Of a stretch of 64,000 nt of DNA, positions 1 to 19,549 are shown in pieces. The position numbers and the translations under genes were made by a program. The stretch is from Candidatus Omnitrophota bacterium. GTDB taxonomy: Bacteria > Omnitrophota > Gorgyraeia > Gygaellales > Profunditerraquicolaceae. Position 1 is the first letter of the stretch. Each line of letters begins with the position of its first letter. The notes under the pieces were generated by a model. That model was not told the DNA's origin. It was given only the letters and a program-made list of their open reading frames with translations, and ran no database searches. The stretch spans positions 5,260-69,259 of the forward strand of contig JALOCB010000003.1 of NCBI GenBank assembly GCA_023227985.1, written 5' to 3'.

Positions 1-3
1 AGA

Positions 4-3000
4 ATGATCCAGCGTCTGGCTATTAATAATGGTACTGCCCACGGCAATAACTATGACGCTGACGGTAAACTTATTGAAACACAGATGAATTTGAAGATGA
101 CCGCGGCGATCGCCGAAGTTATTAAGGCGTATGGTATACAGATAGTCCAGCACGGCGTGACCGGAACGCCTATTAAAAATCTCCAGGCATTGCGTAATGT
201 CGGGATCAGGGCCGCTCATGTCGGGACCAATTGGCAGAATATTATTTGGGAAACTTTAGTTGCCCAGGCGCAGGCGGGTAATTCGACCGCTAAGTCCATA
301 GTAAACCGGATGATCGATGCGACTATCGCTAAGACTGCGGACGTGGAGAAGAAGTATAAAGTATCCGGCCGAAGCGCAGAAGCCAAGGATAGCGTTTATG
401 TCCCGGGAAAAGACAAGAACCTGGACAAGCTGATCGGTAAAGAATTAAAGATGGTATTAGGTGTTTTCAACGACGAGTTGGTTGCTCTTCCTGATGACTT
501 GATTGCCAAGATTGATGAGGCCACCGAAAAATCCGCTACCGAGCATATGCTGGGTTTCGGTTCTGACGGAACAGCCCAGATGGTAAAGGATGATTATGCG
601 GTTCAGGGGTTGGTTTATCCTGAAGATTTCTCCTCGATCAAAGGATTATATGCCTTTAAGGCGCTCGAAGGAACGGATAAGACGATTATGTGTTGTAATA
701 TACGTTCGCCTCTAAGCATTAGGGGTATTATGCGCGCGGCCCAAAAAACAGGCAGCGTGGTTATTTTTCAGCAGGCAATGAGCGAATTCGATTATACCTG
801 GAAAGGCGGCTATGCCCCGGAGAATGCGGCTAAGCTTGCCCGTAATATCAAAGAAGCTGCAAAAAAAGAAAATTTCCACGATTTCATGATTAAGGGCGAT
901 CATCTTACGGTTAAAGTTGATGATGCTTTCTTGAAGGATAAGGCGGCGCAGGATGCTGTTGCTGTGGTATTTGAGAAAATATTGGATGAACAGGATGTTT
1001 CCAAGCGGGAAGCATTGTTCAACGCTGCATCCAAAGACGAAGTTCTTTTAGCCAATGCCGGCGTAGCTAAAGCAATGAAAGCGGTAAATAAGGCTATGAC
1101 CTTGATCAAAGAAGAAGTTGCTTCGGATTTCACTGTTTTTGCTTTAGACGCGTCATTTATGCCTACCAGGCTTAATGTCCTGGTCAGCGCTTACCTGGCG
1201 GGGTTTATTCCCCAGGATGCAGGTTTGGAAGCTGAAGTTGGCGAGATTGGCGGAAAAGAAAATTCCACGGTTGCCGACGCGTTGGAATTCATTACCGGTA
1301 TCAGGTTCAAGGAAGAGGTTGTGGTCAGCCAGGGAGTGAAATATTCTCAGCTGGTCGGTCCGAGAAGGATCGGTGTTCTTACCGGCGGCGGACCTGCTTC
1401 CGGGCATAACGCGGTGATCGCGGCAATGGTCCGCGAAGCGGAGCAGCGGGGGATCGAGATCGTGGCTATCCCTGAAGGTTGGGCTGGTTTGACCAAGGAT
1501 GAAGTAGCCGCGCAAGCCAAGGTTATAACTATTAAAGATGTGGAAAAGTGGGGGAAGAAAGGCGGCACAATGCTGGGGACCAGCCGCACCAATCCGTATA
1601 AGAAAGAAGGGGACGCCCAGAAGGTTTGGGATAATATCCAGAAGTTAAAGCTTGACGGTCTGGTAACTCTCGGCGGTGATGATACCAACGGGGTTACTTC
1701 CAAACTGCAAAAAGAACATCCGGATTACTTATTCATTGGTCTGCCTAAGACCATGGATAATGATATAGCGCTTCCGGAGAGTGACGCGCAGACCTATGGT
1801 TTTGACAGCTTTACCGTCAAGGCCTCTGAATCGTTCGAGGCTGGAAAGATTGACGCGCAATCTACCCATAGGATACTGATCGCTGAAGTTTTTGGAAGGG
1901 CGGCCGGATTCGTTTCTGCGCGTATCGGGGCCAATATAGGGGCTACCCGCACACTGATCCCTGAAGAATTGGTTGATCTTTCAAAGTTAGTCGAGGATCT
2001 GCGCAGCTATTATAAGAATAATAAATACGGGGTTGTTGTGGTTGCCGAAGGGGCAAGCGTCAATGTTGATGGTTTCAAACTGGATGAAAACGGGGAATTG
2101 ACAGTTGTTAAGCCCGAAGACCCGGATGTAAAATTGTTGCTGGCCGCATTTAAGAGCGATCCTATGGCCAAAGCGGCTTTTATCAAGTCTATGAAAGCCG
2201 AGATGGATGATTTTGGCCACAAAAAACTGGAGAATGTCGGTCTTATTGTCGCAGCTGTGGTAAAAACCGCGTTAAAGGCGGATAAGATCGATATTAGCTT
2301 CGCCGGTAAAGCGGATTATCTTTTTCGCTCCGCCGATGTTTCCAAATTGGACGCTGAAATGACCACTATGCTGGGGAAGGCCGCTGTGGAGAAGATCGCG
2401 GATATCCAGAATGATCAGTTGCTTTACGCTTACAAGGGGCAGATTAAATCCATACCGTTTGCCCGGGAATTAGGCGGAAGGGTCCTGGATTACAAAGGCG
2501 CCCATAAAGATGAATATATGTTGGCCAACCTGGCGCTTATTGATGAAAAAACTGAAATAACGCTTTCGGATGCATCGGTTAATGAGGACTTGTTCCAGGC
2601 AGCGGTTAGAAACTTAAAAGGACTTAACCCGGGCGAATTAATGACTCTGAGTTTTTCGGAGATGAAGGTTTTGTTATGGAAGCTTAATAGCCTTGATCAA
2701 GAAACCGGGGACAATCAGGAAGTAGTTCAGTCTGTCAGAAGGATTCTGCATAGGATAGACGACAGGCAGATAGAACAGGTCAAGAAATTTGCCAATATCG
2801 GCGTGTTTGCCCGAGAAAATACTGCGTATAACCTGGAATCAGTGCTTAAGGATGACAATATCCTGGTTATCGCGGCTAACGCGCTTATTTTTCGCGCCGG
2901 AGCCTTTGCCGAATTCTATCATAATTGGGAGCCGGGAGTTAACCTCGCGGCGATCAAGTCTATGAAAGGCGGCAAAGAAGCTACTGCCGAGGAATTTGTC

Positions 3001-4767
3001 CGGCAGAACAGCCGTTATAACGGACCTTTTAGCCCGTATCAGTTAAAAGGTTTGCGCGTGCTTAAGGATGAACGCCGGGTGATTGATGGTGTCGCTGTTA
3101 ATTTCATTTTCGTGCCCGCGGATAAGAATATCGGAAGGCCGGATATCAAGATACCATATTTCGGCCCGGAAACAACTAACCAGCAGGTGCTTGATACTAT
3201 GAAGGCCTTAGGTTTAGAGTTGGATGTCATGGCCTATTACGGCCCGACCAGCGAAACGGTTCAGCCCAGGATATTCAAGGAGTTCATTGAGGCTGGATTG
3301 CCTGTTGTAGCAGCTTCTCCGGTCAACACCGACGCTGTAAAAAATATGCTCAAAGCTAAGTTTCAGCAGGAAGGTGTTGCGGATGATATGCTGGATGAAG
3401 CGGTGAGTAAGGCTTTTAAGGAAGGTTTGTATTCCGCTACCCGTAAAGAAATCGGCGCGGATGTCAAGATCGTGGATACTTTAAGCTGCACTTCCAATGC
3501 CATGATTTCGGTTATTAAAGCAATGTGGGATAAGTTCGGTATCGATCATGGTACCGGCCTGACTATTCATTCCCAGACTGATTCCAATGAGACTTTCCCG
3601 ATGAAAAGCGGCAGGGCCAGGGATCCCCTGGATATCGCCCGCGGCGATTCCATCCGTGACAACATAATCCCTGCTTCAACCGGCGCAAAAAAGAACCTCT
3701 TTAAGATGATCCCGGAATTAAAAGGCAGGTTCGAGATCACCGCTGTTCGCACCGGTACTGTTTCGGCTTCGACCTGGGAGATGACCATGGACCTTAAGAC
3801 TGAAGTGACCAGGGATGATGTCCTTGCGGCTTTAAAGGATTTCGCCCTGAATAAGACCGACGGGGTGGTGAAATTTCACGAAGGAGACCCGGACAGGAAT
3901 CCCGGGCCTCTGGACGCCAACGCCGTGGTCGGCTGGAATAATGTTTCTATTATCGACAGTTTATTGATCAATGTTCTGGATAATAAGAAAACAGTGACTA
4001 TTAAAGGTTTGTATGATAACCAATCAGCGGCGCCGAATCAAATGGTTTCTAAATGGTCGCCGTGGATGGTTGACGGTTTAAGGCTGCGCCAGATAGTCGG
4101 CGAAAAGAACAGCAAAAAGCTGAACAAAGCCGAAGCTGTAGCGTATGCCAAACTCAACGCCGGTTATGCCGGCCTGCTTAAAGCCGTAAGCGCGGTAAAA
4201 ACCAGCGGAGCTCTGGTGGTCAGCGCTGACGTGGTCTTAAAGAACGCCGGGACGCTTTCATCGCTCAAAGCCTTGAAAGAATCAGGCGCTCTTATTGAGA
4301 TCATTGTCCAGGCGAACAACAAGGCTGTCGCTGATAAAATGGTATCAATGGGCGTTGAACAATTCGCGAGCATTCAGTTCAAGCAGGTTAACGCGATAGT
4401 AGAAGAGTTGAATACCAAAGGTATAACTGATGAAAGAATAGTAGTGCTTAAGACCAAAGCTGAATCGAAAGAAGAAGTCAAGAATACCGTCAAGGTGGTC
4501 AATGTCGGCGAAGCTAAAGTCGCCGAATCTTCTGTTAATGCCATGTCGATAGCAGTGGCAAAGGCAGTAACCACCGTGTTGCAGGATAATACGGAGGTTG
4601 TTGATCAATATCAGCAGATGGCGAAGAATTACGCCGAAGCTAACGACGTCGAGCTAAGCAAACTGGAAGATCTGACCAGCCAGATCTCGGATATGCCGCT
4701 GGTTAAGGTGAGCGAAGAAGTGGTCAAGGCTCAGGTTACTTACGAAGAAACTGTAAACAAGATCTAA
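4..4767 (+). CDS. Giant multidomain glycolytic fusion protein, 5'-partial (N-terminus lies upstream of the window). Domains in order: class II aldolase C-fragment, complete class II fructose/tagatose-bisphosphate aldolase, PPi-type phosphofructokinase, about 100 aa unassigned, divergent GAPDH, shared C-terminal module.
   Basis: The first ~95 aa match an aldolase C-fragment (GTAHG, IVQHGVTG, VGIRAAHVGTNWQ). Aldolase motifs: EAEVGEIGGKEN, SPLSIRGIMRAAQKTGSVVIFQ. PFK motifs: GVLTGGGPASGHNAV, LGGDDTNG, PKTMDNDI, EVFGRAAGF. GAPDH motifs: LSCTSNAMISVIKAM, TIHSQTDSNE, RGDSIRDNIIPASTGAKKNLFKMIPELKGRFEITAVRTG. C-terminal ~190 aa are near-identical in layout to the ORF2 C-terminus. Confidence 0.8.
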   Translation: MIQRLAINNGTAHGNNYDADGKLIETQMNLKMTAAIAEVIKAYGIQIVQHGVTGTPIKNLQALRNVGIRAAHVGTNWQNIIWETLVAQAQAGNSTAKSIVNRMIDATIAKTADVEKKYKVSGRSAEAKDSVYVPGKDKNLDKLIGKELKMVLGVFNDELVALPDDLIAKIDEATEKSATEHMLGFGSDGTAQMVKDDYAVQGLVYPEDFSSIKGLYAFKALEGTDKTIMCCNIRSPLSIRGIMRAAQKTGSVVIFQQAMSEFDYTWKGGYAPENAAKLARNIKEAAKKENFHDFMIKGDHLTVKVDDAFLKDKAAQDAVAVVFEKILDEQDVSKREALFNAASKDEVLLANAGVAKAMKAVNKAMTLIKEEVASDFTVFALDASFMPTRLNVLVSAYLAGFIPQDAGLEAEVGEIGGKENSTVADALEFITGIRFKEEVVVSQGVKYSQLVGPRRIGVLTGGGPASGHNAVIAAMVREAEQRGIEIVAIPEGWAGLTKDEVAAQAKVITIKDVEKWGKKGGTMLGTSRTNPYKKEGDAQKVWDNIQKLKLDGLVTLGGDDTNGVTSKLQKEHPDYLFIGLPKTMDNDIALPESDAQTYGFDSFTVKASESFEAGKIDAQSTHRILIAEVFGRAAGFVSARIGANIGATRTLIPEELVDLSKLVEDLRSYYKNNKYGVVVVAEGASVNVDGFKLDENGELTVVKPEDPDVKLLLAAFKSDPMAKAAFIKSMKAEMDDFGHKKLENVGLIVAAVVKTALKADKIDISFAGKADYLFRSADVSKLDAEMTTMLGKAAVEKIADIQNDQLLYAYKGQIKSIPFARELGGRVLDYKGAHKDEYMLANLALIDEKTEITLSDASVNEDLFQAAVRNLKGLNPGELMTLSFSEMKVLLWKLNSLDQETGDNQEVVQSVRRILHRIDDRQIEQVKKFANIGVFARENTAYNLESVLKDDNILVIAANALIFRAGAFAEFYHNWEPGVNLAAIKSMKGGKEATAEEFVRQNSRYNGPFSPYQLKGLRVLKDERRVIDGVAVNFIFVPADKNIGRPDIKIPYFGPETTNQQVLDTMKALGLELDVMAYYGPTSETVQPRIFKEFIEAGLPVVAASPVNTDAVKNMLKAKFQQEGVADDMLDEAVSKAFKEGLYSATRKEIGADVKIVDTLSCTSNAMISVIKAMWDKFGIDHGTGLTIHSQTDSNETFPMKSGRARDPLDIARGDSIRDNIIPASTGAKKNLFKMIPELKGRFEITAVRTGTVSASTWEMTMDLKTEVTRDDVLAALKDFALNKTDGVVKFHEGDPDRNPGPLDANAVVGWNNVSIIDSLLINVLDNKKTVTIKGLYDNQSAAPNQMVSKWSPWMVDGLRLRQIVGEKNSKKLNKAEAVAYAKLNAGYAGLLKAVSAVKTSGALVVSADVVLKNAGTLSSLKALKESGALIEIIVQANNKAVADKMVSMGVEQFASIQFKQVNAIVEELNTKGITDERIVVLKTKAESKEEVKNTVKVVNVGEAKVAESSVNAMSIAVAKAVTTVLQDNTEVVDQYQQMAKNYAEANDVELSKLEDLTSQISDMPLVKVSEEVVKAQVTYEETVNKI

Positions 4768-4773
4768 CATTCT

Positions 4774-4828
4774 CAAGACCCGGTCTTGCATCCCAATGAG
4801 TCCTAATGGGTTGCAAGACCGGGTCTTG
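4774..4828. repeat. Paired 15-bp GC-rich palindromes forming a ~55-bp imperfect inverted repeat between megagene 1 and megagene 2. First copy CAAGACCCGGTCTTG at 4774-4788, second copy CAAGACCGGGTCTTG at 4814-4828. Candidate transcript-processing, attenuator or REP-like hairpin.
   Basis: Read directly. The two 15-mers are reverse complements of each other and flank the partial palindrome CCCAATGAG-TCC-TAATGGG. The same 15-mer recurs at 12744-12758. Confidence 0.6.
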
Positions 4829-4925
4829 AACATGTCTTTATATGAATAAGATAAATCCGTTTCAATTTAAAAACCGCAACAGGCAGAAGTTGTAATTTAA
4901 TTCAAATCATCAACCGGAGGGAAAA

Positions 4926-7900
4926 ATGTTCGTAAGGTTATCCCAAAACAACCTGTTCAGGAAGATCGTCGGCATTCTTATTCTTTTACAATTTTCAGCC
5001 GGTTTTGCCGTGATTAGGGGTTATGCTGCTCCCGGAAATTTGCGGCCTGCCGCCGTCAAACAGGATGGTTCCCGGTCCGGGACTATCCAGAATTCGCTTG
5101 ACGCGGCCAGCCTGGATAAGGTTATAAAAACCCCGGTCATTCATAAGGACGGCGGTATAACCGGCCAGGATGTTTTTAAGAATATCCTTGGCGAATACCG
5201 TGTTTCCTCCACGATAAACAATCTCGCTTTCGGGACGTTCGTCCAGGGGCAGATCGACCTTAGTTCGGTTCAGAACCGGGAAGCGCTGGTCAATAATTTC
5301 GGGGAGATTAAGAGCAAAGATCGTTTTTTTACCCTTGAATACGCGGGAATTCCGCTTGCCCTGGTCAAGAAGGCCGAAACCGGAGAAATTACCGTCAAGA
5401 AAGTAGTCGAAGACATTGCTTCGATCCCGCTCAACATCCTTTCCGACAATGCCGAAAAGCTCAAAACCGAAGGTGTTACTTCCTCGGATATCCTGGTCCG
5501 CGATTTTCTTATCCTTGAAAAAAGGTCGCGTATCGACATCACTCAGTGCATGACCGTAGAGTTTGGCGAGCTGCGCGACTACGTATACAATCTGGCTAAA
5601 AATGTCGGCCAGGAAAAGGCACTGGAGATGGCATCGGCGTTTGCGGGTAAGGCTACCGTTGACGAGGCTATGGCGGAAGTCGGCGAGAAAGCTAAGCAGT
5701 TAGGCCGCGACCAAGCGAAGGACACAGGTCTGGCGCTGGCCGGCGGTAAGGGTTTGAGCCTTTCGGTCATGAGCCGCGTGGTTGACGTGCCGCCTGGTTT
5801 GAACGTTACTACTACCGCGTATTTTAAGTTCGTCAAAGATAATAAACAGGTCTGGGAGAAGATCTTTAATGAGCTGCAGACCTTGGATACTATGGATGAC
5901 CAGAAGCGCGACGTTGTCACTTCGGAGATCCGCGATGTCATTAAAAGCGCGCCGATACCCGAAGACATCAAGGCTGAGGTAACAGCAATGTACCACCAGC
6001 TAAGCGTTATCCGTTTTCTTGCCGGTAAACCTTCGCCCGCTCCGGTGGCTGTCCGCTCTTCCGGCACCAAAGAGGATATTCACGTTAAAACCTGGCTGCC
6101 GGTTTCCACCGGTTCCCAGGCCGGCCAGTCGGATACATTCCTTAATGTTAAGGGCGAACGGGATGTCCTGGATAAATTACGCGCCGATTGGGCGTCTTTA
6201 TTTACCGATCGCGCGGTCAGCTACCGTGATGACGCCACCTTCTTGCAGTTCTCTGGAGCCATCGATTTTAACGGTAAGACTTCTCAGGATGTCTATTGGG
6301 GGATCGTGGCGAAGCTTCGGGAATACTCCAAGAAACTGGATAAGCCTGAATATAACGTGTACGCTGACTTAATGAGTAAAGTCACCAGCCCTAACCCTGG
6401 GTCGGTGAGCCTGATGAACGCCATGGAGGAGATCCTGAGACAGGAATCGAATCCGGAGATGTCCAATGCCCTTGCCGTTCTGAAGAAGAAAGCAGAGGAG
6501 GTTGTGCATCCCGAACAGATCGGTATCGACGTTGTGATCATGCAGATGGCTAAGAGTTATCTTGCCGGCGTGCTTTTTACCGTCAATCCGGCGACCAAGA
6601 TGGCCGGTGTGGCCCAGTCGTTATACAAGTCATGGTATATGGGTGATGATTCGCTCGTGTACCGCGACGCGAAGACCGATATTATCCAGGGAACCAGGCC
6701 CATAGTGGTGAGCTTTGATGTGGCCTTCGGCTACGGCGAGAACGTAGTCGGCGGCAAGGTAAACCCGGACAAGTTCATTATGGGCACCTACGACGGCGAG
6801 AGCTGGTTTGTTATCGAGAAAAGCAAAGGCAATAAACTTATTCAGATGAAGGACGTGGAAGAAGTCATCGATCTCCTCAAAGACAAGATATCGGAAAAGG
6901 GCCAGCGGCAGCTCGCTATGACCGTGAAAGACGCGATCGCGTATGATGAGGTCGGCAAGCGGATCAACGGCATTATGGCGACCAAACTCTACGGTATCAA
7001 GTATCTTAAGGCGCTTGAGGGTAAAGAGGAAAGCGATAAAGACAAGAAGGCCCGCGTACAGGCTATCGCCAATGAGATTGCCGACATGGTCAAGAATAAG
7101 GTTTCCGAGGATGAAGTTGTCGCGTTCATCAAGGGTAACTTTGAGGTCGTTAACCGGAAGGGCTATAAAGGCATTCAGGAAATGGCGCTTTCGGGAGTGG
7201 TCAGGGAAGTGTTTGAGAAAGTCCAACAGGCCCAGGCTGAGACCGACCGGGGTATGTTTAAACTCTCAAAGCAGCTCGGCGATATGGGAAAGGCCGATAC
7301 GCTTATCCATATGATCAAGGAGGTTTGGGAGAATAAGGAATTTACTCTTTCCGACCGCCAGGCGATTCTTGACAAACTGAACCTTACCAACCAGGAATTG
7401 CGTAATATGAGTTACCTTATCCGCGCGCTGGTGGATAATAGCTTTACTTCAAATTATGAGACTACTTTAACCCACCAGGATACCTTTACTATGACCGATG
7501 ATCAGGCCCAGTATGTGGCGCGTATGGGTTGGGCGATCACCGAATATTATAAGGATGCCCGAGATATAGAGTATGCCATCGAGATAGATAAAACCGCTTC
7601 TTCCGACAAAGCGGTGAGGCTTTACGTTGTGGACGACCTGGGCAATGTCCAGGGAATGGACAATAATGGCAACCTGGTAACGGTGAAGTCCGAAAAGGAT
7701 AAAGCGCGTATAAAAGAAGCGAAGCTGCGCCTGTATAACGTGCAGGCCCGTCCGTATACCGCGGAATACTTGAAGGTGGATGTAATGCGCGCCCGGACCG
7801 AAGCGGATGAAAAGTGGCTTGAGGAGAATTCTCCTAAAGCGATTGCCAGCGGGACTAAGGGAGAGAACGCGACGCAGGGTTATGTGCTGGTGTTCGATCC

Positions 7901-10900
7901 TAACAAAGACGTTGCCTGGCACGCGGACCAGATCCGTCGTTTGAAAGCCGGAGATTTTACTGCGGAGGAAAAAGCCCAGATCATGGCTATGGGGTTTAAT
8001 CCCGAAGAGTATGGTTCAGGCAAAGAAAAGCAATTGTCGGTTATTCTTTATCTGCTTGAAGCTGACCCGAATCATGATCCGATCATGCGCCTGGTTGATT
8101 CGGTTGTTACTATCCGCGGCGGCGATACCTGCCACGCGGCTATCTTTTGCCGTGAACAAGGGATCCCTGCGGTCACCGGCGCGGGCAAGGTTATACTCAA
8201 CGGCCAATTGCTTAAGACCGGTGACGCGGTTACCGTTGATGCTAATAACGGGAATATTTACGAAATGCCCGCTGATGCCGGAGCGCGCATTCCGATCAAC
8301 TACGTGAAATTCAAGATTAAACCGTATGGCATCCCCGGCGACGACGACAATATGCCGTATCCGGGCATCGGCCAGATCATCGCCGCGGCAAGTGCCGCTC
8401 AGCAGAACTCGCCTATTATGCTTGCGGTTGACGCGGTCGGTAACTCGCTGACCCGCGCCGAGTTCAAAGGCGAAGAGATCGGTATCAACGTTTACGCCGG
8501 CTATGGCCATTATCTTTTACAGCAGATCAAGGCCGGAAAAATAAAGGAGCCAGTGAGGGTGCGTGTCCAGGAATTGATCCAGGGCAAGGTTCCCGGCGCA
8601 AAGAGGTTCGTGGACAATATTGAAAATGTTATGGCAGGCGCTTTTGCCAAGGATCCCGCCGCGCGTTCGGCATATCGCGACATTATGGGTAAGGATTTCA
8701 ATAAGGCGGATAGCCTGCAATTGCTGGAGTTTTTCGATTTGAAGAGCGACATTGAGCTGTATGGATTGGATGCGCTTAAACTGGTAAAACAGCAGGTTGA
8801 TATTCTTGATCTCGTTCCCCGGCTTCCGGAGAATATGTATCAGACGCTTGAATATCTTTATGGCGCCACTCAGCGCAGGCTCAACTATGATTATAATATT
8901 ATCGCCGATCTTCAGAACCATCCGTGGATACTGAAAGAAGTCGATTCTAAACTCGCGGAAAAGGGTTACGCGACGTTCAAGGAATACATCACTAACGAAT
9001 TCCTGTATTTTTACAATTTGATGGGTTTTACCATTGCGCCCGATCAGACCGCCAAGAACAGGGCTTACGATTTCGCCCAGGATAAGATCCGCGGCATGCC
9101 CGGTTCCGAGGTTTTTTCCTGGCCCGGAGTCAATCCGTTGGTCGGTTTGCGCGGTACGTCGTTGGAGATCGAGGCCTTTGACGAAGATTTCGGCGGCAAT
9201 CAGCTGGTATTGGATTTTCTTTTTGATTCCGTGATCCAGGCGCACCAGAATACCGGTAACCAAGCCTGGTTTTATGTGTTTGTCCGTTCTTCCCGGGAGT
9301 TAGAGACCCTGGATAAGATCATTGAGCACAAGGCTAAGCAGACCGGGAAGCTTCCGAAAGAGATCGGGATCATGATCGAAGTTCCCAGTGCCGCTTTGGT
9401 GGCTGATGAGCTTGCTGTTAAGATGTCCGAGATGGAGAAAAAATATAAGAAGTATGGCGTTGAGCATACTTTCTTTTCCTTCGGCACTAACGACTATTCG
9501 CATCTTGCTGGTATGGGTGACCGTGAAGACCCGCGAATGAAACTCAAGATTATGGATCCCGCAGCGATCGAAGCGATCGGCGAGATGAAAGCAGCGGGGT
9601 ATTATTATGATGATGCTGCTAAAGTGCTTCCGTTGATTGATGAAGGCGCTGATGTTATGCAGCAGCTTATGGAAACAGTGGTTGCTGCGGCTAATGGTTC
9701 AAGCGTGGCTACCTCGCTTTGCGGCGAGGCGATCACCGCCCTGGTTAACCGCGGGGATTATGAGACCGCAGGCAAGATAATGGCGCTTCTGGATTCTTTC
9801 GGCGTGAGCATGATGAAAGTCCGCCTCGCAGCTTCAATGACGCGCGTGGACACCATGGCGGCTACCAAAGGGATCACCATTCCGGAAGCCGGACGTTCGA
9901 TCCTGTTCGATTTGTCTGCCGGCGAGGTGAAACAGAAAAAGGGCGTCATCAAGGGCGAGATAATATTCGTTGATAATGCCGATGATCTCGTCCCGAACGT
10001 CCTTAAAGGCCTTCAGGGTCCGGAGCTGACGAAAAAGAAAGAGATGTTCAAGCTCCAGAGCCTGGAAAACGCCCGTTCGACTATGCGTACCTTCAATAAG
10101 ATCGTAATTATCACTAAAAACCTCGTTGCTCAGCAGGAGCCTGAGTTGGTCGCGGAGATGGGCAAAGCCGCATTCAGCAAGTTTGTCAATGACGGCCTGC
10201 TTAAAGATATCGGTAATGGGCAGTATGTCTGGACGAATCTGGGTGTAAAGACGGAGAAGTTCAACCAGGAATTGACAATTCAAGGTTTCTCTGAAAAAGA
10301 ACGTAAAGCTATTGAAGGTTTGTGGCAGAAGGCCTGGGATAACAGCATTGAAGGGCTTGAGCGCCGCGGAATTGATTGGGATGATCTACAATATGCCAAG
10401 GCTATAATCGTTGATGCGGACGTTAACCTTGATGGCTGGGATGTGTTCCGCAAGGACAAGAGTATTATTCCGACCCGTATCAAGGCTACGGTCAAAGGTA
10501 TAAGCTCCCGCCGTGCGGAGTTAGAAGGGCAATTGGCAACTATAGATTACGCCGCTAAGAAGGTCTACAAGGATTTTCTCAGCGTGGAAAAGATCGCTGC
10601 CGTCCTGCGCAGTCTTCCTATCCCAGCGGAAAAGCCTATGATAACTACGCAATCGGCTGTCGCGGAGAACGCCAACAGTGTATACCAGAAGATCGGGTAT
10701 CATCCTAAGCTCCTTCTTGCCTATGAGCGGAATGCTGTGAATGAACTTGGAAAGATATTCGAGGAATATGTAGGCAAGCTGGTTGAAGAAGTTGAAAAAG
10801 TTACTCAGGAGACCGACGTTCAGAAACGCGTATGGCTTTTACAGAAACTGCAGAATAAAGTTGGCGGGCTTGCGGAACCGATGATCAAATCGTTTATGAG

Positions 10901-12698
10901 CGATGTGCTTTCCGAGGCCATGCGCACAGGTGCGGTAACGCTGCCGGATAACTGGAACAAGAAGCTTTGGGAGGCCTATCGCAGCGACCTGGAAAGCGAG
11001 ATCAGTAAGATCCTTAACGGAAAGACGGTTGAGCAGTATTTTATCGCGCAGTTCAGCGAACAGATGAAGGAAGTGCTCTCCGCCAACAAAGGGGCATTGG
11101 TTGTCCATCTTTTGGGAAGCCTCAACTGTGTTGATTTCTTTAATATGAAAGGCGGTTTCCTGGTTGAACAGGTCAATCCCAACCCTGATTACGGCATTCT
11201 TGGAGCGGCGCGCGCAATAGGGGATATGTGGGAGATAAACCGCATGGAATTGTCCGCTTTTAAGGCGGTATGGGATAATCTGCCGGTTGACCAGCGCGGT
11301 AATTTTGGCCTGCAGATCACCAATCTCAAAGGCACCCAGTCCGGCGCGGTGGTGATCGGCTGGCGTAATATTCTGAAACAAACCGGTATTATCCCGGGGC
11401 AAGACGGTTTGCAGGTTGGCGTCAATATCGTCACTCCGGCGGATAGCATCGCTGCGGATAAGTATTTTGAGTACTTTAATACGCTCGGAAGCGGGTTAAG
11501 TTTTATCTCATATGATGCGTTGAAGCTTGGCGCTGCCTGGGCCGGCGTGGATATTTTTTGGAAGGAATGGAGGAGGCTGGCTAAGGAAGATGAGTTGTTG
11601 AGGTTCGGCGTCATGACCGGCTGGATGGCGGAAGCCAAGGCTCTGAGGTTCGGCGGCAAAGTCCTTTCCTTTGATATTTCTGACGAAGCCAAACAGACTG
11701 ACGGCGGCGCTGAGGTTGTGCCTTACCGGGTAGTGGTGGAGAATCTCTTCCGGGGGATCATTAAGAAATATGATGCTTTGGATAACGGCCAAGCTCTTTC
11801 TCTCGAAAAAGAAGAGTTGGAGGCAATACTCTGGATCTTGAATTCTTCTCCTTTTGAGAATATGTCAAGCCCGTTTGCCGCGATCAAGAGTATGAAGAAT
11901 ATCAGGAATGTGATCGAAAGGCTCAGCGATGACCAAAAGAAGGCCCTAAGTGTACTTTCACAGGGCTTGGTTTTTGTCAATCACGGGCTGGATAAAAAGG
12001 TGGCGGCATTGCTCGTAGACAAGAAGTTGCTCGACACCGCATATGAATCCGACACGGCGGTATATAAAGGGTTGAACAGCGGTTTTGACAGCTTCGCCAA
12101 TGCCTTGAAAGAGGTTAAGAATGCCGAGGGCGCTTTAGTGGTTAGCGCAAATGCTGTGTTGAATAACGCCGGAACGCTGAGAGTCCTGAGAGAAATAAAA
12201 GAAACCGGGCTGACCTTGGAAATAATCGTCCGGGCTGATACGGAAGATCAGGTGAATAAGCTGATTGCCCTTCGGGCAGACGAAGTCGCGACTATCCAGG
12301 CCAAGCGGCTGTCAGTTGTGCTCAGCGGCTTGAAGAACGCGGGTATAACCGATGGCAAGATAGTGGTGATTAAAGGCAAAGAAGAAGTAAAAGACGCGGT
12401 AGAAGCCGGCGTAAAGGTCGTAGAGATCTCCATGCCTAAAACAGAGGAGTCCAGTATCAACTCCATGGCCTTAGTTGCGGCAAAAGCGGTAATCATAGTG
12501 TTAAATGGTGAAGAAACGGTTGCCGCGCAATACCGGGAAATGGCGGTAAAATACGCCGCAGATAACAGCGTAACCTCTGAAGAATTGGATGATCTGCAGG
12601 ACCTGACCAGCCAGATCTCGGAGATACCCATGGCCAAGGTCAGCGAAGAAGTCGCTAAGGCGCAGGCCACTTATGAGGAGACTATAAGCAAGATATAA
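4926..12698 (+). CDS. Giant 2590-aa fusion protein. Domains in order: N-terminal leader, unknown N-domain, pyruvate phosphate dikinase/PEP synthase-like domain, ~730 aa unassigned region, shared C-terminal module.
   Basis: RBS GGAGGG 7 nt upstream of the ATG. PEP-utilizing enzyme motifs: ALAGGKGLSLSVM, VAVRSSGTKEDIHVKTWLPVSTGSQAGQSDTFLNVKG, GGDTCHAAIFCREQGIPAVTGAG, FSFGTNDYSHLAGMGDRED, SLCGEAITAL. The N-terminal leader RKIVGILILLQFSAGFAVIRGYAAPGNLRPAAVK is shared with ORF3. The C-terminal ~190 aa match ORF1 (GALVVSANAVLNNAGTL ... LTSQISEIPMAKVSEEVAKAQATYEETISKI). Confidence 0.8.
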   Translation: MFVRLSQNNLFRKIVGILILLQFSAGFAVIRGYAAPGNLRPAAVKQDGSRSGTIQNSLDAASLDKVIKTPVIHKDGGITGQDVFKNILGEYRVSSTINNLAFGTFVQGQIDLSSVQNREALVNNFGEIKSKDRFFTLEYAGIPLALVKKAETGEITVKKVVEDIASIPLNILSDNAEKLKTEGVTSSDILVRDFLILEKRSRIDITQCMTVEFGELRDYVYNLAKNVGQEKALEMASAFAGKATVDEAMAEVGEKAKQLGRDQAKDTGLALAGGKGLSLSVMSRVVDVPPGLNVTTTAYFKFVKDNKQVWEKIFNELQTLDTMDDQKRDVVTSEIRDVIKSAPIPEDIKAEVTAMYHQLSVIRFLAGKPSPAPVAVRSSGTKEDIHVKTWLPVSTGSQAGQSDTFLNVKGERDVLDKLRADWASLFTDRAVSYRDDATFLQFSGAIDFNGKTSQDVYWGIVAKLREYSKKLDKPEYNVYADLMSKVTSPNPGSVSLMNAMEEILRQESNPEMSNALAVLKKKAEEVVHPEQIGIDVVIMQMAKSYLAGVLFTVNPATKMAGVAQSLYKSWYMGDDSLVYRDAKTDIIQGTRPIVVSFDVAFGYGENVVGGKVNPDKFIMGTYDGESWFVIEKSKGNKLIQMKDVEEVIDLLKDKISEKGQRQLAMTVKDAIAYDEVGKRINGIMATKLYGIKYLKALEGKEESDKDKKARVQAIANEIADMVKNKVSEDEVVAFIKGNFEVVNRKGYKGIQEMALSGVVREVFEKVQQAQAETDRGMFKLSKQLGDMGKADTLIHMIKEVWENKEFTLSDRQAILDKLNLTNQELRNMSYLIRALVDNSFTSNYETTLTHQDTFTMTDDQAQYVARMGWAITEYYKDARDIEYAIEIDKTASSDKAVRLYVVDDLGNVQGMDNNGNLVTVKSEKDKARIKEAKLRLYNVQARPYTAEYLKVDVMRARTEADEKWLEENSPKAIASGTKGENATQGYVLVFDPNKDVAWHADQIRRLKAGDFTAEEKAQIMAMGFNPEEYGSGKEKQLSVILYLLEADPNHDPIMRLVDSVVTIRGGDTCHAAIFCREQGIPAVTGAGKVILNGQLLKTGDAVTVDANNGNIYEMPADAGARIPINYVKFKIKPYGIPGDDDNMPYPGIGQIIAAASAAQQNSPIMLAVDAVGNSLTRAEFKGEEIGINVYAGYGHYLLQQIKAGKIKEPVRVRVQELIQGKVPGAKRFVDNIENVMAGAFAKDPAARSAYRDIMGKDFNKADSLQLLEFFDLKSDIELYGLDALKLVKQQVDILDLVPRLPENMYQTLEYLYGATQRRLNYDYNIIADLQNHPWILKEVDSKLAEKGYATFKEYITNEFLYFYNLMGFTIAPDQTAKNRAYDFAQDKIRGMPGSEVFSWPGVNPLVGLRGTSLEIEAFDEDFGGNQLVLDFLFDSVIQAHQNTGNQAWFYVFVRSSRELETLDKIIEHKAKQTGKLPKEIGIMIEVPSAALVADELAVKMSEMEKKYKKYGVEHTFFSFGTNDYSHLAGMGDREDPRMKLKIMDPAAIEAIGEMKAAGYYYDDAAKVLPLIDEGADVMQQLMETVVAAANGSSVATSLCGEAITALVNRGDYETAGKIMALLDSFGVSMMKVRLAASMTRVDTMAATKGITIPEAGRSILFDLSAGEVKQKKGVIKGEIIFVDNADDLVPNVLKGLQGPELTKKKEMFKLQSLENARSTMRTFNKIVIITKNLVAQQEPELVAEMGKAAFSKFVNDGLLKDIGNGQYVWTNLGVKTEKFNQELTIQGFSEKERKAIEGLWQKAWDNSIEGLERRGIDWDDLQYAKAIIVDADVNLDGWDVFRKDKSIIPTRIKATVKGISSRRAELEGQLATIDYAAKKVYKDFLSVEKIAAVLRSLPIPAEKPMITTQSAVAENANSVYQKIGYHPKLLLAYERNAVNELGKIFEEYVGKLVEEVEKVTQETDVQKRVWLLQKLQNKVGGLAEPMIKSFMSDVLSEAMRTGAVTLPDNWNKKLWEAYRSDLESEISKILNGKTVEQYFIAQFSEQMKEVLSANKGALVVHLLGSLNCVDFFNMKGGFLVEQVNPNPDYGILGAARAIGDMWEINRMELSAFKAVWDNLPVDQRGNFGLQITNLKGTQSGAVVIGWRNILKQTGIIPGQDGLQVGVNIVTPADSIAADKYFEYFNTLGSGLSFISYDALKLGAAWAGVDIFWKEWRRLAKEDELLRFGVMTGWMAEAKALRFGGKVLSFDISDEAKQTDGGAEVVPYRVVVENLFRGIIKKYDALDNGQALSLEKEELEAILWILNSSPFENMSSPFAAIKSMKNIRNVIERLSDDQKKALSVLSQGLVFVNHGLDKKVAALLVDKKLLDTAYESDTAVYKGLNSGFDSFANALKEVKNAEGALVVSANAVLNNAGTLRVLREIKETGLTLEIIVRADTEDQVNKLIALRADEVATIQAKRLSVVLSGLKNAGITDGKIVVIKGKEEVKDAVEAGVKVVEISMPKTEESSINSMALVAAKAVIIVLNGEETVAAQYREMAVKYAADNSVTSEELDDLQDLTSQISEIPMAKVSEEVAKAQATYEETISKI

Positions 12699-12706
12699 TA
12701 TATTGA

Positions 12707-12778: not shown

Positions 12779-15700
12779 ATGTCCAGGCCGTCTAAAAACA
12801 ATAGTATCTCTAAAATAATTTCCGGCGTTGTGATCGCGCAATTTATCATGAGCAGTATAGCCCTGCGCGGTTATGCCGGCACAGACAATTTAAGGCCGGC
12901 TCCGGTCAAAGATTCCGACCGGATAAGCGTTCTGGCCGATGAATTGCAGAAAGACGGCGGCAAACTGGCTGAATGGATCCATATCTTAGCGGAAAATACA
13001 ATTGTGGGCGATGCCGCTAAAGGTTCGAACGTCGGCATGGTCATACGGCTGGGAAAGCTTGTTGAAGAGAATATATCCGGGTCCATATTAGGGCATTCGG
13101 CAAACCGGAAGGCGTATATAAAGGAAGTGGGCGCTCAAATCGCTGAAGGGCTGCGTTTGACCGGAATGGAAGAAAAGGCGATCGCGGCTGCCAGCCGCAA
13201 GATAGCTTTTTCCAGATACGATAACATCATGAATCACCGGATCCAGGCGATGTTTCAAGCAGGGATCAGGGAGATCTGCCTTTGCGTAGGCAGTGATAAG
13301 GATAAGCTCACCGTTGAGGAAGAGATATCGGATGTGCTTGCGCAGTTGCAGGTGTCTTTTGCCGATGTCTCTTTGGAACAAATAAAAAAGATAATTTTCC
13401 ACGTGGCTTGGGAGCCTGCGGCGAATATCGGCACCGGTACTGCTGTCGGTCCGGAAAAGATCAAGCTGGTCCATCAGGCTATCTATGAATTCTTTGCCGA
13501 GAAGTATAATACACCCTCCGGGTATATCGGCGATGTTTGGGGGAAGTCATTGAAAATACTTTACGGCGCAAGCGTTGACGGAAAGAACGTCGACGGCATA
13601 ATGGCGGTGAAAGAGGATAAAGGCATGGCTTTGGTGCACGGCGTGTTATTCGCTTCTTCGGGTAAAAAGGCCGATGGCTTCCTGGCTGTGGCCGAGGGGG
13701 TTAGCCGCGCCGCGGAAAGGGATAACGCCCAGTATGTCTGTTTTGTCAACCTTAAGGAATTCGCCAGGGCTGAGAAAGATGAGGCTTTGACTTTTGTCGT
13801 CGAGATCGTCCGGGCCATTGCTTTAGGACGGATCGATCCCCGGCATACCATTCTGGCGATCGCTGACCAGGATGTACATCTAAAGGAGTGGCAGGACGCG
13901 ATCGTCGGCAGAAGCGTTTCGATGTCGGACGGCGGATACGCGTATGTTGAAGGAACGAACTTTAAGGACAAGAATGTGCTTTTTCGCCCGGATTATAACA
14001 CTCCGGCTTCGGTAAAGACCGATGATCAGGGTAATGTTTTGTCGATCAAAATATCCGACGCAAGCAGGATCGTTGATTCCTTCCCGGCTTTGACCAAGAT
14101 CCTGAAAGATAAGCCAAAACATGTGGTTGTCGTTGTCCATTTCGAACCTAAGGTGTTGAATCCCGCGACCGGTAAGAAAGACAAGAAAAATCTGTCTACT
14201 AAAGTCACAGCGGACAAACTTAAAGAATTGCTGCCGGCGGAATATAAAGATAAGGTAATATTCCTGGCTGATTCAGTCAATGACAATGGGATTGCCGCCG
14301 AAGCAATGCGGGCTATAGAAAGTTATACTGATTCCGAGATCATCGTATTGGAAAATATCCGTTTTGCCAAAGGCGAAAAGAAAGGTGCCCCCGAGCTTAA
14401 TGATCCTAAAGGTGTAGCTTTACGCAAACAGCTTTCAGGATTAGCGGACGAATATGTGGTGGATGCCTTGGGTAATATTCATCGCGCCCACGCATCAATG
14501 CTGCCTTTGCCCGGGGTGCATAAAGTCATGGGCAGTCTTGTGGAAAAAGAGATTAAAGTGTTCAACCGGATACTTAACCCGGCGCATCCTTATGCCGGGG
14601 TTAACGGCGGTAATAAGGTTGAAGATAAAGTGGATACCATGGATGTGTCTTTGTCGACGATGCAGGAAGGCGACGCGATCATCATCGGCGGGGCTATGGC
14701 CTACACTTTTTTAAAGGCGCAGGATCCAACATTGAAATTGGGCAAATCACTTGTTCAGGCGGATAAAGTTGATCTGGCTAAGACTATACTTGAGAAGGCC
14801 GCCCGGAAGAAGGTGCGGATAATCCTTCCAGTGGACCATCGCATCTCGGATAAACTCGCTCCCGGAGCAGCAGAATTGGTTACTGAGGGGCTGGAAGTGC
14901 CGGATGGGTACATGGCGGTAGATATCGGACCCAAGACTGAAAAAATAGTCGCCGAGGTCTTAAGTAATGCCCAGACCGCTTTTTGGAACGGCCCAATGGG
15001 CGCGTTCGAGGATGAGGCTGGTGGTTTTAATAAGGGGACTTATACGGTTGCCAGGGAACTGCAGAAAATGGGCAGGTCCGGACGCCTGGCCGGTATCGGC
15101 GGCGGGGAGACACGTATGGCAGCAATTAAGGCCGGGGTTACCGATGCTGACGGCGTGTTCATGTCCAGCGGCGGCGGTTCCACGCAGGAATATTTCGCCA
15201 AGAAAGGCAATCTCCCGGTGATCAAGAATCTGGAGAATGACGAAACCGCCCAGAAAAATCTCGTCCTCGCGGGGAAATTGGGGGTAGAACCCGCGGATCT
15301 GGCGCGTTTTGAAGCGGCAGACAGCAGTATTTATAATGCCTTGGGAGATAAACTTTTCAACGGCTATATATCTCAGGTCAGAAGGTTGCTTCCCAGGTTT
15401 TCGACAGGCCAGAAATTAAACGGCGCTCTGTCCAAAGCAGAGGTCTCTGCGGAGGTGATTAAAGATTCGCGCGGAAACAATACTGTCCGGGCAACTTTAA
15501 AGATCGGGGATATTGTTACTGTCGGCGAAGTCCCTGCAGGCGCTTCCAAAGGGGCAGCTGAGGCTTTTGCTTTTCCGCCGAAGGAAATAGATAGGGCGAT
15601 CGCCAACGTGGCGAAGATCCAGGAGATACTTAAGAACAGCGGCCTGGATATAAGCAAACACAGCGATCTGCGCAAGACGGAACAATTGATCATTGCCGCG

Positions 15701-18826: not shown

Positions 18827-19549
18827 ATGGACATAAAAGAACGCAGGCAGGCAATAAGGTGGCAAATAAACAGCCCCGGGCAAATTGTTCTGGAGGACTG
18901 CCGGGCGTTAGTTAATTGCACTATACTTGATATAAGTTACCGGGGGGTCCAGGTATTGCTGGATAAACCTCTGGAGAATACCAAGTTATTCAAGATCAGC
19001 GTCGTACTTTCCGAGGAGTGCTACCTGGACAGCATCGACCTGCGCAGCGTCTGGCACAGGAAGGTTCCGGAAGGCGAGCTTTACGGCTTGTATTTTAACC
19101 GCATAAAAGACATAGATAAAGAGAAGATCTACAAATTTGTCTTTAAGCACGCACCAAGGCAAATACATCAACAGTGGTGGCAGGAATCTGACAAGGGGGG
19201 GGGTGAATCAATGGAAGATATGGGGACCAACGACAAGAGAGTCTTTGCGCGGTTTCCGGTGCAGATGGCTTTGAAATTCATTGATCTATTATCCAACAGG
19301 GAAGGCCAGGCGCATGCTTATGATATCAGCGCCAAGGGTTTGGGATTTATGGCGACCGAGGAATTAAAACCGCTTACACCGTTGGAGATGTGGCTACAGG
19401 TCCCGGATAAAGGGGAGCCGCTTTATACCAGAGGTGAAGTAGTCTGGTCAGAGATGGTCGAACCTAATAAATACAAGGCCGGGATCAATCTGGAAAGAGC
19501 GGACCTGATGGGTGTTTCCCGGGTTTTAAGGACCCTCAATACGATATAG
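18827..19549 (+). CDS. Tandem PilZ-domain protein, a putative c-di-GMP receptor.
   Basis: Two PilZ-like segments, each with an RxxxR motif followed by a D-x-S-x-x-G motif: RRQAIRW...LDISYRGVQV and DKRVFARFPV...YDISAKGLGF. Confidence 0.5.
   Translation: MDIKERRQAIRWQINSPGQIVLEDCRALVNCTILDISYRGVQVLLDKPLENTKLFKISVVLSEECYLDSIDLRSVWHRKVPEGELYGLYFNRIKDIDKEKIYKFVFKHAPRQIHQQWWQESDKGGGESMEDMGTNDKRVFARFPVQMALKFIDLLSNREGQAHAYDISAKGLGFMATEELKPLTPLEMWLQVPDKGEPLYTRGEVVWSEMVEPNKYKAGINLERADLMGVSRVLRTLNTI

What the first reader, a model, noticed from the sequence alone, without database searches (positions are those of the whole stretch)
4200..4767. Shared ~190-aa C-terminal module and terminal peptide (LTxQxSD...VTxEE) on all three megaproteins
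The last ~190 aa of ORF1 and ORF2 are collinear and highly similar. Examples: GALVVSADVVLKNAGTLSSLKALKESGALIEIIVQ vs GALVVSANAVLNNAGTLRVLREIKETGLTLEIIVR, and the identical-length tails LTSQISDMPLVKVSEEVVKAQVTYEETVNKI vs LTSQISEIPMAKVSEEVAKAQATYEETISKI. ORF3 carries a divergent version (LLINADFFKSGAVKNAVAEIARLNGNINVVIYGDNAEK ... LTKQVSDVIEKERLVTEEFVGKV). Three different enzyme fusions share the same non-catalytic C-terminal module. That points to a common docking, oligomerisation or targeting function, analogous to scaffold-docking or cargo-loading peptides. Other copies lie at 12050-12698 and 16740-17302.
Basis: seen in the sequence. Interest (0 to 1): 0.85.

Follow-up and report, generated by a model that had tools for sequence, protein, structure and literature searches.

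The report
Shared tail domain on glycolytic megaproteins
Three giant fused glycolysis enzymes of an uncultured Omnitrophota bacterium all end in the same previously undescribed, apparently non-catalytic 220-residue domain, which evolves in step within each genome and so most likely serves as a common docking or assembly handle for the whole pathway.

Summary
ORF1 and ORF2 end in a collinear ~220-aa module (46% identity, E 1.5e-47). ORF3 carries a degenerate copy that only profiles detect (HMM E 7e-5; hhalign 93.7%).

The module is an unannotated family, with no Pfam, NCBIfam or PDB sequence match. It has 94 credible representative clusters worldwide. It lies at the extreme C-terminus in 86 of 94. 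It occurs almost only on Embden-Meyerhof enzyme fusions of Candidatus Omnitrophota. Most complete members also carry an N-terminal signal-like leader.

Between orthologues the enzyme parts are 63-80% identical while the modules are only 29-40% identical. Modules within one genome are 40-56% identical. This is concerted evolution, as seen in cellulosomal dockerins.

Best reading: a pathway-specific docking or assembly domain. The partner and the cellular location are unknown. It is novel as a domain family, and its function is inferred, not shown.

The parts
1..4767 (+). ORF1, partial because it is cut by the left edge of the window: class-II FBP aldolase-like / PPi-type phosphofructokinase / GAPDH fusion, followed by the C-module
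   Evidence: Pfam F_bP_aldolase, PFK, Gp_dh_C. The frame is open from nt 1. The orthologue P0006 (1697 aa, 74% identity) supplies the missing leader. Motifs GGDDT, PKTMDND and SCTSN are intact.
4114..4764 (+). C-terminal module, copy 1 (217 aa)
2578..2865 (+). Second, shorter segment shared with ORF2 (between PFK and GAPDH in ORF1)
   Evidence: BLASTP ORF1 aa 859-954 against ORF2 aa 2270-2369: 23% identity, E 3e-5.
4926..12698 (+). ORF2 (2590 aa): leader + pyruvate,phosphate dikinase (PPDK_N / PEP-utilizers / PEP-utilizers_C) + long extra region + C-module
   Evidence: Pfam. Catalytic-His motif GGDTCHAAI is present. Orthologue P0054 = NCBI HQQ05885.1, Candidatus Omnitrophota.
4926..5165 (+). 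ORF2 N-terminal leader: basic n-region, hydrophobic stretch, ..GYA, then NLRPAAVK and DGG motifs
   Evidence: 40% identity to the ORF3 N-terminus over 55 aa, E 2e-6. The same leader appears in most full-length family members. Median net charge is +3 before the hydrophobic stretch and +1 after it.
11733..12032 (+). ORF2 copy of the shorter shared segment, immediately upstream of the module. It belongs to the fast-evolving C-terminal unit of ORF2.
   Evidence: Identity to the L012 orthologue falls from 60-90% to 6-35% from about aa 2236 onward.
12033..12695 (+). C-terminal module, copy 2 (221 aa)
   Evidence: It is only 29% identical to the module of orthologue L012_B, whose enzyme part is 63% identical.
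12779..17302 (+). ORF3 (1507 aa): leader + triosephosphate isomerase / phosphoglycerate kinase / enolase fusion + degenerate C-module
   Evidence: Pfam TIM, PGK, Enolase_N/C. The full set of enolase catalytic motifs is present. The enolase domain is 36% identical to the stand-alone enolase of the same window.
12779..12964 (+). ORF3 N-terminal leader (hydrophobic stretch, ..GYA, NLRPAPVK, KDGG)
16757..17299 (+). C-terminal module, copy 3 (divergent or degenerate)
   Evidence: Family HMM E 7e-5. hhalign probability 93.7%, E 2e-7. AlphaFold core pLDDT 78-90, tail below 50. ORF3-type orthologues in L012/L013 lack about 29 aa of the tail region.
17400..18701 (+). Conserved downstream neighbour: 433-aa protein with an N-terminal signal-like sequence and no known domain. 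It is a candidate partner only.
   Evidence: No Pfam hit. 36% identical orthologue in the same position in L012 and L013.
18827..19549 (+). Conserved downstream neighbour: PilZ-domain protein
   Evidence: Pfam PilZ. A PilZ gene is in the same position in L012/L013, 60% identity.

Best explanation
SHOWN. The ~220-residue C-terminal module is a previously unannotated, autonomously folding alpha/beta domain. It looks like a capless HAD-like Rossmannoid fold that has lost the HAD catalytic residues. It forms the last domain of a family of Omnitrophota megaproteins whose other domains are enzymes of a PPi-dependent Embden-Meyerhof pathway: PGI, PPi-PFK, aldolase, TIM, GAPDH, PGK, enolase and PPDK. 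Most complete members also carry an N-terminal Sec-signal-like leader. The conserved terminal motif (PLVKVSEEVxKAQxxYEETxxKI) is a strand plus helix inside the domain.

INFERRED. The module is a pathway-specific docking or assembly handle. It would hold the separate megaenzymes together, or on one common partner, so that the pathway works as one co-localised assembly. This is functionally like dockerins on cellulosomal enzymes. The partner co-evolves with the module, which would explain why modules within a genome resemble each other more than their orthologues do. Candidate partners are the modules themselves, the conserved secreted flanking proteins, or the giant (30,339-aa) protein encoded just upstream in a close relative. 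Whether the assembly sits outside the cytoplasmic membrane or is tethered to its inner face is not resolved.
For: - Family and position: an exhaustive HMM search found 95 representative clusters, one of them a spurious repeat protein. The module match ends within 12 aa of the C-terminus in 86 of 94.
- Cargo: among 62 members, Pfam finds only glycolysis-related families: PPDK/PEP-utilizers, PFK, GAPDH, FBA-II, PGK, TIM, cupin GPI and enolase. There are rare cases of aldose epimerase, UDPGP, GlpX, an F420_oxidored-like domain and DHH. PGI is present in L012.
- Non-catalytic: the HAD motif I positions are G/S and N/D. The near-invariant residues are A38, N44, G46, L51, K55, N142, M144, L146, A151, P195, L196, Q207 and Y210.
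- Concerted, fast evolution: Win_A vs L009_A is 80% identical in the enzyme part and 40% in the module. Win_B vs L012_B is 63% and 29%. Same-genome modules are 48% identical in the window and 40-56% in L012 (three modules), against 25-37% to other genomes. The breakpoints are sharp.
- Conserved operon and neighbours in L001, L006, L009, L012 and L013.
- The enzymes look active, with catalytic motifs intact. They are paralogues of ordinary stand-alone enzymes: the enolase domain is 36% identical to the stand-alone enolase.
Against: - No binding partner was identified and no multimer prediction could be run.
- Concerted evolution can come from gene conversion between tandem paralogues without any functional coupling.
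- In L009 the two modules of one genome are only 38% identical, so homogenisation is not universal.
- The ORF3 copy is degenerate, with a low-confidence tail, and its L012/L013 orthologues lack part of the tail. This is awkward if all three proteins must dock in the same way.
- The leader's topology (cleaved signal or membrane anchor) was judged only by eye and by a crude charge count.
Confidence: 0.5

Rival explanations
1. The module is a C-terminal sorting or secretion domain. After Sec export directed by the N-terminal leader, a dedicated outer-membrane or surface system would recognise the folded C-terminal domain. This would work like the T9SS C-terminal domain or other C-terminal sorting tags. 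The glycolytic enzymes would end up on the cell surface or be delivered to prey.
For: - The architecture is an N-terminal signal-like leader plus an extreme C-terminal conserved domain with a conserved last residue.
- The lineage is Omnitrophota, in which large proteins carrying sugar-metabolism domains have been predicted to be extracellular, with type II secretion genes near the giant genes (10.1101/2023.11.21.568195).
- Fast evolution could reflect co-evolution with a translocon component.
Against: - A generic sorting tag should sit on diverse cargo such as hydrolases and adhesins. Here the cargo is almost only Embden-Meyerhof enzymes.
- Other signal-bearing proteins in the window lack the module.
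- There is no match to known sorting-domain models in Pfam or NCBIfam.
- No secretion-system genes are next to the operon in the window.
Confidence: 0.2
2. The module is a regulatory pseudo-phosphatase. In this reading a degenerate HAD domain still binds a phosphorylated metabolite or PPi/Pi, and so gives all pathway enzymes a common allosteric input.
For: - The module is attached only to enzymes that handle phosphorylated sugars, in a PPi-dependent pathway (GGDDT-type PFK, PPDK).
- A few conserved polar or charged positions exist: K55, R/K150, D/E117, N44, N142.
Against: - A small-molecule site should be conserved. Instead the module diverges to 25-40% identity between orthologues whose enzymes are 63-80% identical, and it co-varies within genomes.
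- The HAD phosphate-binding motif I is gone.
- The ORF3 copy is degenerate.
Confidence: 0.15
3. The module is itself an enzyme, for example a phosphatase or a phosphomutase that supplies the phosphoglycerate mutase step missing from the fusions.
For: - Phosphoglycerate mutase is the one lower-glycolysis step not seen among the fused domains.
Against: - The nucleophile and general-acid aspartates of HAD motif I are replaced by G/S and N.
- There is no invariant D/E/H/K/S/C set.
- One copy on every polypeptide makes no stoichiometric sense for a single step.
- A stand-alone cofactor-independent PGM is encoded in the window at 47544-48830.
Confidence: 0.05

Closest known systems
Dockerin modules of cellulosomal enzymes (type I dockerin-cohesin system)
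   Same: - The enzyme architecture matches: signal peptide, catalytic domain(s), then a conserved non-catalytic C-terminal module shared by many different enzymes of one process.
- Modules of one genome resemble each other more than those of other species, as expected if they co-evolve with a common partner.
- The operon lies next to a giant protein gene in a relative.
   Different: - No sequence or fold relation. Dockerins are ~70-aa duplicated Ca-binding F-hand segments, whereas this is a ~220-aa alpha/beta Rossmannoid domain.
- The cargo is cytosolic-type glycolytic enzymes, not polysaccharide hydrolases.
- No cohesin-like partner has been identified.
HAD (haloacid dehalogenase-like) phosphatase superfamily, capless C0 members such as MDP-1 (PDB 1u7o)
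   Same: - A faint sub-threshold sequence hit to TIGR02253 lies over the helix and strand-2 region.
   Different: - The motif I DxDx(T/V) is absent.
- No HAD Pfam or NCBIfam model reaches threshold.
- Foldseek sees only generic Rossmann folds.
- Extra N-terminal helices and a C-terminal helix/strand/helix extension make up nearly half the domain.
Glycolytic enzyme domains inside Omnitrophota giant proteins ('Archaeovorins'; West-Roberts et al. 2023, bioRxiv 10.1101/2023.11.21.568195)
   Same: - Same phylum.
- TIM, GPI, FBPase, FBA and PPDK_N domains occur in very large proteins with signal or TM segments and were predicted, with reservations, to be extracellular.
- In locus L009 the operon lies directly downstream of a 30,339-aa gene.
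   Different: - The proteins here are 1.2-2.6 kaa. They consist almost only of glycolytic enzymes and have a single N-terminal hydrophobic segment.
- The shared C-terminal module and the shared leader are not described in that paper or in the 2026 Omnitrophota long-protein preprint.
- The C-terminus of the L009 giant protein lacks the module.
Known glycolytic fusion proteins: the TPI-PGK fusion of Thermotoga (from my own knowledge) and the TPI-GAPDH fusion of stramenopiles, which carries mitochondrial targeting signals (PMC3527533)
   Same: - Consecutive or neighbouring glycolytic steps are fused in one polypeptide.
- In stramenopiles the fusion goes together with an N-terminal targeting signal and relocation of part of glycolysis to another compartment.
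   Different: - Here up to three enzymes are fused per protein, and nearly the whole pathway lies in one operon.
- The setting is bacterial.
- There is an additional common C-terminal domain, which those fusions lack.
Encapsulin cargo-loading peptides and microcompartment encapsulation peptides
   Same: A conserved extreme C-terminal sequence is shared by functionally related enzymes.
   Different: - Those are short (about 10-20 aa) peptides on flexible linkers, and shell genes lie nearby.
- Here the conserved tail is part of a folded 220-aa domain with pLDDT above 95.
- No shell or encapsulin genes were found in the window.

Membership tests
HAD superfamily | Rossmannoid alpha/beta core of HAD type | tested here: inconclusive
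   [not shown]
HAD superfamily | Motif I DxDx(T/V) at the end of strand 1 (nucleophile and acid/base aspartates) | tested here: not met
   Across 67 modules, the column after strand 1 is G42/S10/T5, then an invariant A, then N37/D9/E6. ORF1 has S-A-D and ORF2 has S-A-N.
HAD superfamily | Significant match to HAD sequence models | tested here: not met
   Pfam at E <= 10 gives no HAD family. NCBIfam gives only TIGR02253 at E 0.038, 13.7 bits against a cut-off of 169.75. A PDB profile search gave nothing below E 0.49.
Dockerin (PF00404) | About 70-aa duplicated Ca-binding F-hand segment | tested here: not met
   No Pfam hit at E <= 10. The model is a 217-aa alpha/beta domain.
Dockerin (works-like comparison) | Binds a cohesin-type partner on a scaffold | not testable with these tools
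   No partner was identified. Only indirect support is available, from within-genome concerted evolution.
T9SS C-terminal domain / other C-terminal sorting tags | Match to Por_Secre_tail or to NCBIfam sorting-domain models; beta-sandwich or TM-helix tail | tested here: not met
   No hit in Pfam or NCBIfam. The tail has no hydrophobic TM segment. The fold is alpha/beta.
Encapsulin / BMC targeting peptide | Short terminal peptide on a flexible linker, with shell genes in the neighbourhood | tested here: not met
   Tail residues 191-216 are ordered within the domain, with pLDDT 95-98. No shell or encapsulin families were found among the scanned window ORFs.
Sec-type signal peptide (N-terminal leader of the same proteins) | Basic n-region, hydrophobic h-region, small residues at -3/-1 of a cleavage site | tested here: inconclusive
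   By eye, the pattern is present in ORF2, ORF3 and most full-length relatives, e.g. ..SAFA|AA..RGYA|A. Median net charge is +3 on the N side and +1 on the C side. No dedicated predictor was available, and h-regions of 17-25 residues would also fit an uncleaved anchor.

The most novel reading that the evidence does not exclude
Predatory or epibiotic Omnitrophota export an almost complete PPi-dependent glycolytic pathway as signal-peptide-bearing megaenzymes. They would assemble it outside the cytoplasm into a cellulosome-like 'extracytoplasmic glycolysome'. The fast-co-evolving C-terminal modules would act as dockerin analogues on a scaffold, possibly the neighbouring giant protein. The assembly would process sugar phosphates taken from prey. 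This would be the first docking-module-organised central-metabolism machine, and the first glycolysis located outside a bacterial cytoplasm.
Probability: 0.15. Interest if true: 0.95.

Novelty: new variant of a known kind. Interest (0 to 1): 0.8.

Why it matters
Whether glycolytic enzymes form physical assemblies (metabolons) in cells is a long-standing and hard-to-test question. This lineage has hard-wired the pathway into two to five polypeptides. It has also added the same non-enzymatic domain to the end of each, and the same signal-like leader to the start of each complete one.

That gives a concrete, clonable handle of ~220 aa. The handle can be used to test pathway assembly, to find the partner, and to ask where glycolysis takes place in ultra-small predatory bacteria that cannot yet be grown in pure culture.

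It also defines a new domain family that current annotation misses. The proteins are deposited simply as 'phosphoglycerate kinase' or 'PEP/pyruvate-binding domain-containing protein'. Finally, it gives a natural example of enzyme scaffolding that synthetic biologists try to engineer.

Tried and rejected
- The word-indexed protein search with the ORF1 module found nothing. With the 40-sequence profile it found only 3 short fragments. The index evidently misses these long proteins.
- The first GTDB genome scan with the ORF1+ORF2 alignment found nothing. The window's own genome region is therefore not among the GTDB representatives. Two alignment-based retries failed for lack of a conserved 7-10-column stretch. 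A hand-made degenerate DNA pattern found one true locus (L006, an Omnitrophota MAG) and three chance hits.
- Exact look-up of ORF3 and of the stand-alone enolase failed. RnfD located the organism in NCBI assembly GCA_041653715.1.
- P0053 is a repeat protein and a false positive of the two-sequence profile. The 67-sequence HMM does not hit it.
- I tried to test head-to-tail binding of the N-terminal LRP/DGG peptide to the module with a paired chimeric alignment.
- The AFDB Foldseek library was unavailable.
- Kizina et al. 2022 (PMC9004380) is not held, so I could not check whether these proteins were seen in the V. archaeovorus proteome.
- Recent gene conversion between ORF1 and ORF2 is rejected. 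Nucleotide identity is 59% and the longest identical run is 20 nt.
- The C-terminus of the L009 giant protein does not carry the module.
Full report
**What is in the window**

Nucleotides 1-17302 hold three co-directional giant ORFs. Pfam shows that they are fusions of glycolytic enzymes.
- ORF1 is class-II aldolase / phosphofructokinase / GAPDH.
- ORF2 is pyruvate,phosphate dikinase plus a long extra region.
- ORF3 is triosephosphate isomerase / phosphoglycerate kinase / enolase.

ORF1 runs off the left edge of the window. Its 74%-identical orthologue P0006 shows that about 84 N-terminal residues, including a hydrophobic leader, are missing.

Catalytic signatures are intact (motif meanings are from my own knowledge of these families). 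They are:
- PFK: GGDDT and PKTMDND, the PPi-dependent type
- GAPDH: SCTSN and TIHS
- Enolase: the full motif set
- PGK: GGGET
- PPDK: GGDTCHAAI

The window also encodes an ordinary stand-alone enolase at 30393-31682(-). It is only 36% identical to the ORF3 enolase domain. A stand-alone cofactor-independent PGM and a ROK-family protein are present too. For enolase at least, the megaprotein therefore carries a second, divergent copy of a housekeeping enzyme.

**Check of the observation**

The ORF1 and ORF2 C-termini align over 217 aa at 46% identity, E 1.5e-47.

The ORF3 C-terminus is not found by BLASTP or by a two-sequence HMM. A 67-member family HMM hits it at aa 1327-1490, with E 7e-5 against all six-frame ORFs of the window. 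It is the only hit besides ORF1 and ORF2. hhalign gives 93.7% probability, E 2e-7, over 171 collinear columns. ORF3-type C-termini from L012 and L013 behave the same way.

All three copies are therefore real, and the third is degenerate.

**The family**

An exhaustive profile search of 1.84 billion representative proteins returned 95 clusters with E <= 1e-3, of which 72 had E <= 1e-10. One of them, P0053, is a spurious repeat protein.

In 86 of the 94 remaining clusters the match ends within 12 residues of the protein's C-terminus.

Among 62 members of at least 400 aa, Pfam finds only glycolysis-related domains. These are PPDK/PEP-utilizers, PFK, GAPDH, FBA-II, PGK, TIM, cupin-type GPI and enolase, with rare aldose epimerase, UDPGP, GlpX FBPase, an F420_oxidored-like domain and DHH. 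A 947-aa member in L012 has a weak PGI hit.

Source names and one GTDB locus place the family in Candidatus Omnitrophota. The window's RnfD is identical to one in NCBI assembly GCA_041653715.1.

No Pfam, NCBIfam or PDB sequence model matches the module. The proteins are deposited under the name of one of their enzyme domains.

**The other end of the proteins**

ORF2, ORF3 and most full-length relatives begin with the same leader. It has these parts in order:
- a basic stretch
- a 17-25-residue hydrophobic segment ending in ..YA or ..FA
- a [DN]xLRPxAxK motif
- a short amphipathic stretch
- (K)DGG

By eye this looks like a Sec signal peptide. The charge balance (+3 before the hydrophobic stretch, +1 after) favours an N-in orientation. 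No predictor was available, so an uncleaved membrane anchor is not excluded.

**Structure**

With a 40-sequence alignment, AlphaFold2 gives pLDDT 96.4 and pTM 0.93 for the ORF1 module. The model has two N-terminal helices, a five-stranded alpha/beta core, two long helices, a short strand pair and a final helix.

The conserved tail motif PLVKVSEEVxKAQxxYEETxxKI forms that strand pair and final helix, with pLDDT 95-98. It is part of the fold, not a free peptide.

I read the module as a pseudo-enzyme domain of HAD-like fold. I do not file it as a HAD family member.

The ORF3 copy, modelled with 15 family members as its alignment, keeps the core (pLDDT 78-90). It loses confidence in the last ~38 residues.

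**Evolutionary behaviour**

Related loci carry the same operon.
- L001: metagenome contig.
- L006: Omnitrophota MAG.
- L009: 470-kb contig in which the operon follows a 30,339-aa gene and a 511-aa gene.
- L012, L013, L014: operon of FBA-PFK-GAPDH, a PGI-like 947-aa protein, PPDK, and TIM-HEAT-PGK-enolase, followed by a 422-aa protein, PilZ and a TPR-GH2-like gene, as in the window.

Comparison of orthologues shows that the module evolves much faster than the enzyme parts.

| Comparison | Enzyme part identity | Module identity |
|---|---|---|
| ORF1 vs L009_A | 80% | 40% |
| ORF2 vs L012_B | 63% | 29% |

The breakpoints are sharp, at about aa 1354 in ORF1 and about aa 2236 in ORF2.

Modules of one genome are more alike than orthologous modules: 48% in the window, and 40-56% among the three in L012 against 25-37% to any other genome. 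The ORF1 module is closer to B-type modules (48% and 44%) than to its own orthologue (40%). This indicates an old module exchange. It is not recent: nucleotide identity is 59% and the longest identical run is 20 nt.

The pattern is not universal. The two L009 modules are only 38% identical.

**Interpretation**

Several properties argue together for a protein-protein docking or assembly role, functionally analogous to dockerins, and against a generic secretion tag, a small-molecule sensor or an enzyme:
- The module is a folded, non-catalytic domain.
- It always comes last in the polypeptide.
- It is found only on enzymes of one pathway.
- It diverges quickly, and does so in step within a genome.

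This conclusion is inferred. No partner was found and multimer prediction could not be run. The degenerate ORF3 copy and the possibility of neutral gene conversion are the main caveats. I give the docking/assembly reading about 0.5, sorting about 0.2, regulatory ligand binding about 0.15 and catalysis about 0.05.

**Comparison with the literature**

West-Roberts et al. (bioRxiv 10.1101/2023.11.21.568195) noted TIM, GPI, FBPase, FBA and PPDK_N domains inside Omnitrophota giant proteins. They predicted these to be extracellular, but with reservations.

A 2026 preprint catalogues long Omnitrophota proteins and their sugar-metabolism modules.

Neither paper, nor any other paper found in eight full-text searches, describes this family of glycolytic megaproteins with a common leader and a common C-terminal domain.

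The key primary paper on Candidatus Velamenicoccus archaeovorus is not held, so prior mention there cannot be excluded.

**Verdict**

It is a new domain family marking a pathway-wide set of fused glycolytic enzymes in Omnitrophota, with evolutionary signatures of a shared interaction module. The function and the cellular location remain to be shown.

Noticed in passing
window ~29370-30067 (- strand): An initiator-type tRNA-Met (CAU) gene appears to be split in its anticodon loop by a ~625-nt group I intron. The 5' exon (CGCGGGGTGGAGCAGTCCGGTAGCTCGTCAGGCTCA) lies at ~30067-30032. The 3' exon (TAACCTGAAGGCCGTCAGTTCAAATCTGGCCCCCGCA) lies at ~29406-29370. The Rfam Intron_gpI hit is at 29437-29633 (61.6 bits). 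ARAGORN did not call this tRNA. The exon boundaries were placed by eye.
   Followed up: partly
window 4926-5165 and 12779-12964; also relatives P0003, P0006, P0011 etc.: ORF2, ORF3 and most full-length family members share an N-terminal leader. It has a basic stretch, a 17-25-aa hydrophobic segment ending ..YA/..FA, then [DN]xLRPxAxK and (K)DGG motifs. It looks like a Sec signal peptide followed by a conserved mature N-terminus of unknown role.
   Followed up: partly
ORF2 aa 75 and 2259; ORF3 aa 59 and 384; family-wide: The tripeptide DGG is 2.6-fold over-represented in the family (71 observed, 27 expected; other xGG tripeptides are not enriched). It sits at the end of the leader and at domain junctions, and in 11 of 40 cases within 30 residues upstream of the module start. 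It could be a hinge or a processing site.
   Followed up: partly
window 2578-2865 and 11733-12032: A second, weaker shared segment of about 96-100 aa (..LSFSEMKVLLWKLNS.. / ..LEKEELEAILWILNS..) occurs between PFK and GAPDH in ORF1 and just before the module in ORF2 (E 3e-5). In ORF2 it belongs to the fast-evolving C-terminal unit.
   Followed up: no
L009:1-8256 and 8452-9987 (a related contig, upstream of the ORF1 orthologue): In a close relative the operon lies directly downstream of a 30,339-aa giant gene and a conserved 511-aa signal-bearing gene with no Pfam domain. The 511-aa gene is also upstream of the operon in L012 and L013. The corresponding region lies outside the window.
   Followed up: partly
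window 30393-31682 (-), 47544-48830 (+), 41355-42593 (+): Ordinary stand-alone enolase, archaeal-type cofactor-independent phosphoglycerate mutase and a ROK-family protein are encoded in the same window. At least enolase is therefore duplicated: the stand-alone copy and the ORF3 domain are 36% identical.
   Followed up: partly
window 17400-29303: Downstream of the operon lie a conserved 433-aa secreted protein of unknown function, a PilZ protein and a sugar ABC transporter (binding protein plus two permeases). Several signal-bearing proteins with weak GH2/GH72-like TIM-barrel hits or no hits follow. Part of this order is conserved in L012 and L013.
   Followed up: partly
protein P0019 (NCBI MGE5308203.1): One family member (FBA + cupin GPI + GAPDH + module) is deposited as coming from a 'Deltaproteobacteria bacterium' MAG. 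All other named members are Omnitrophota. This may be a binning error or a transfer.
   Followed up: no
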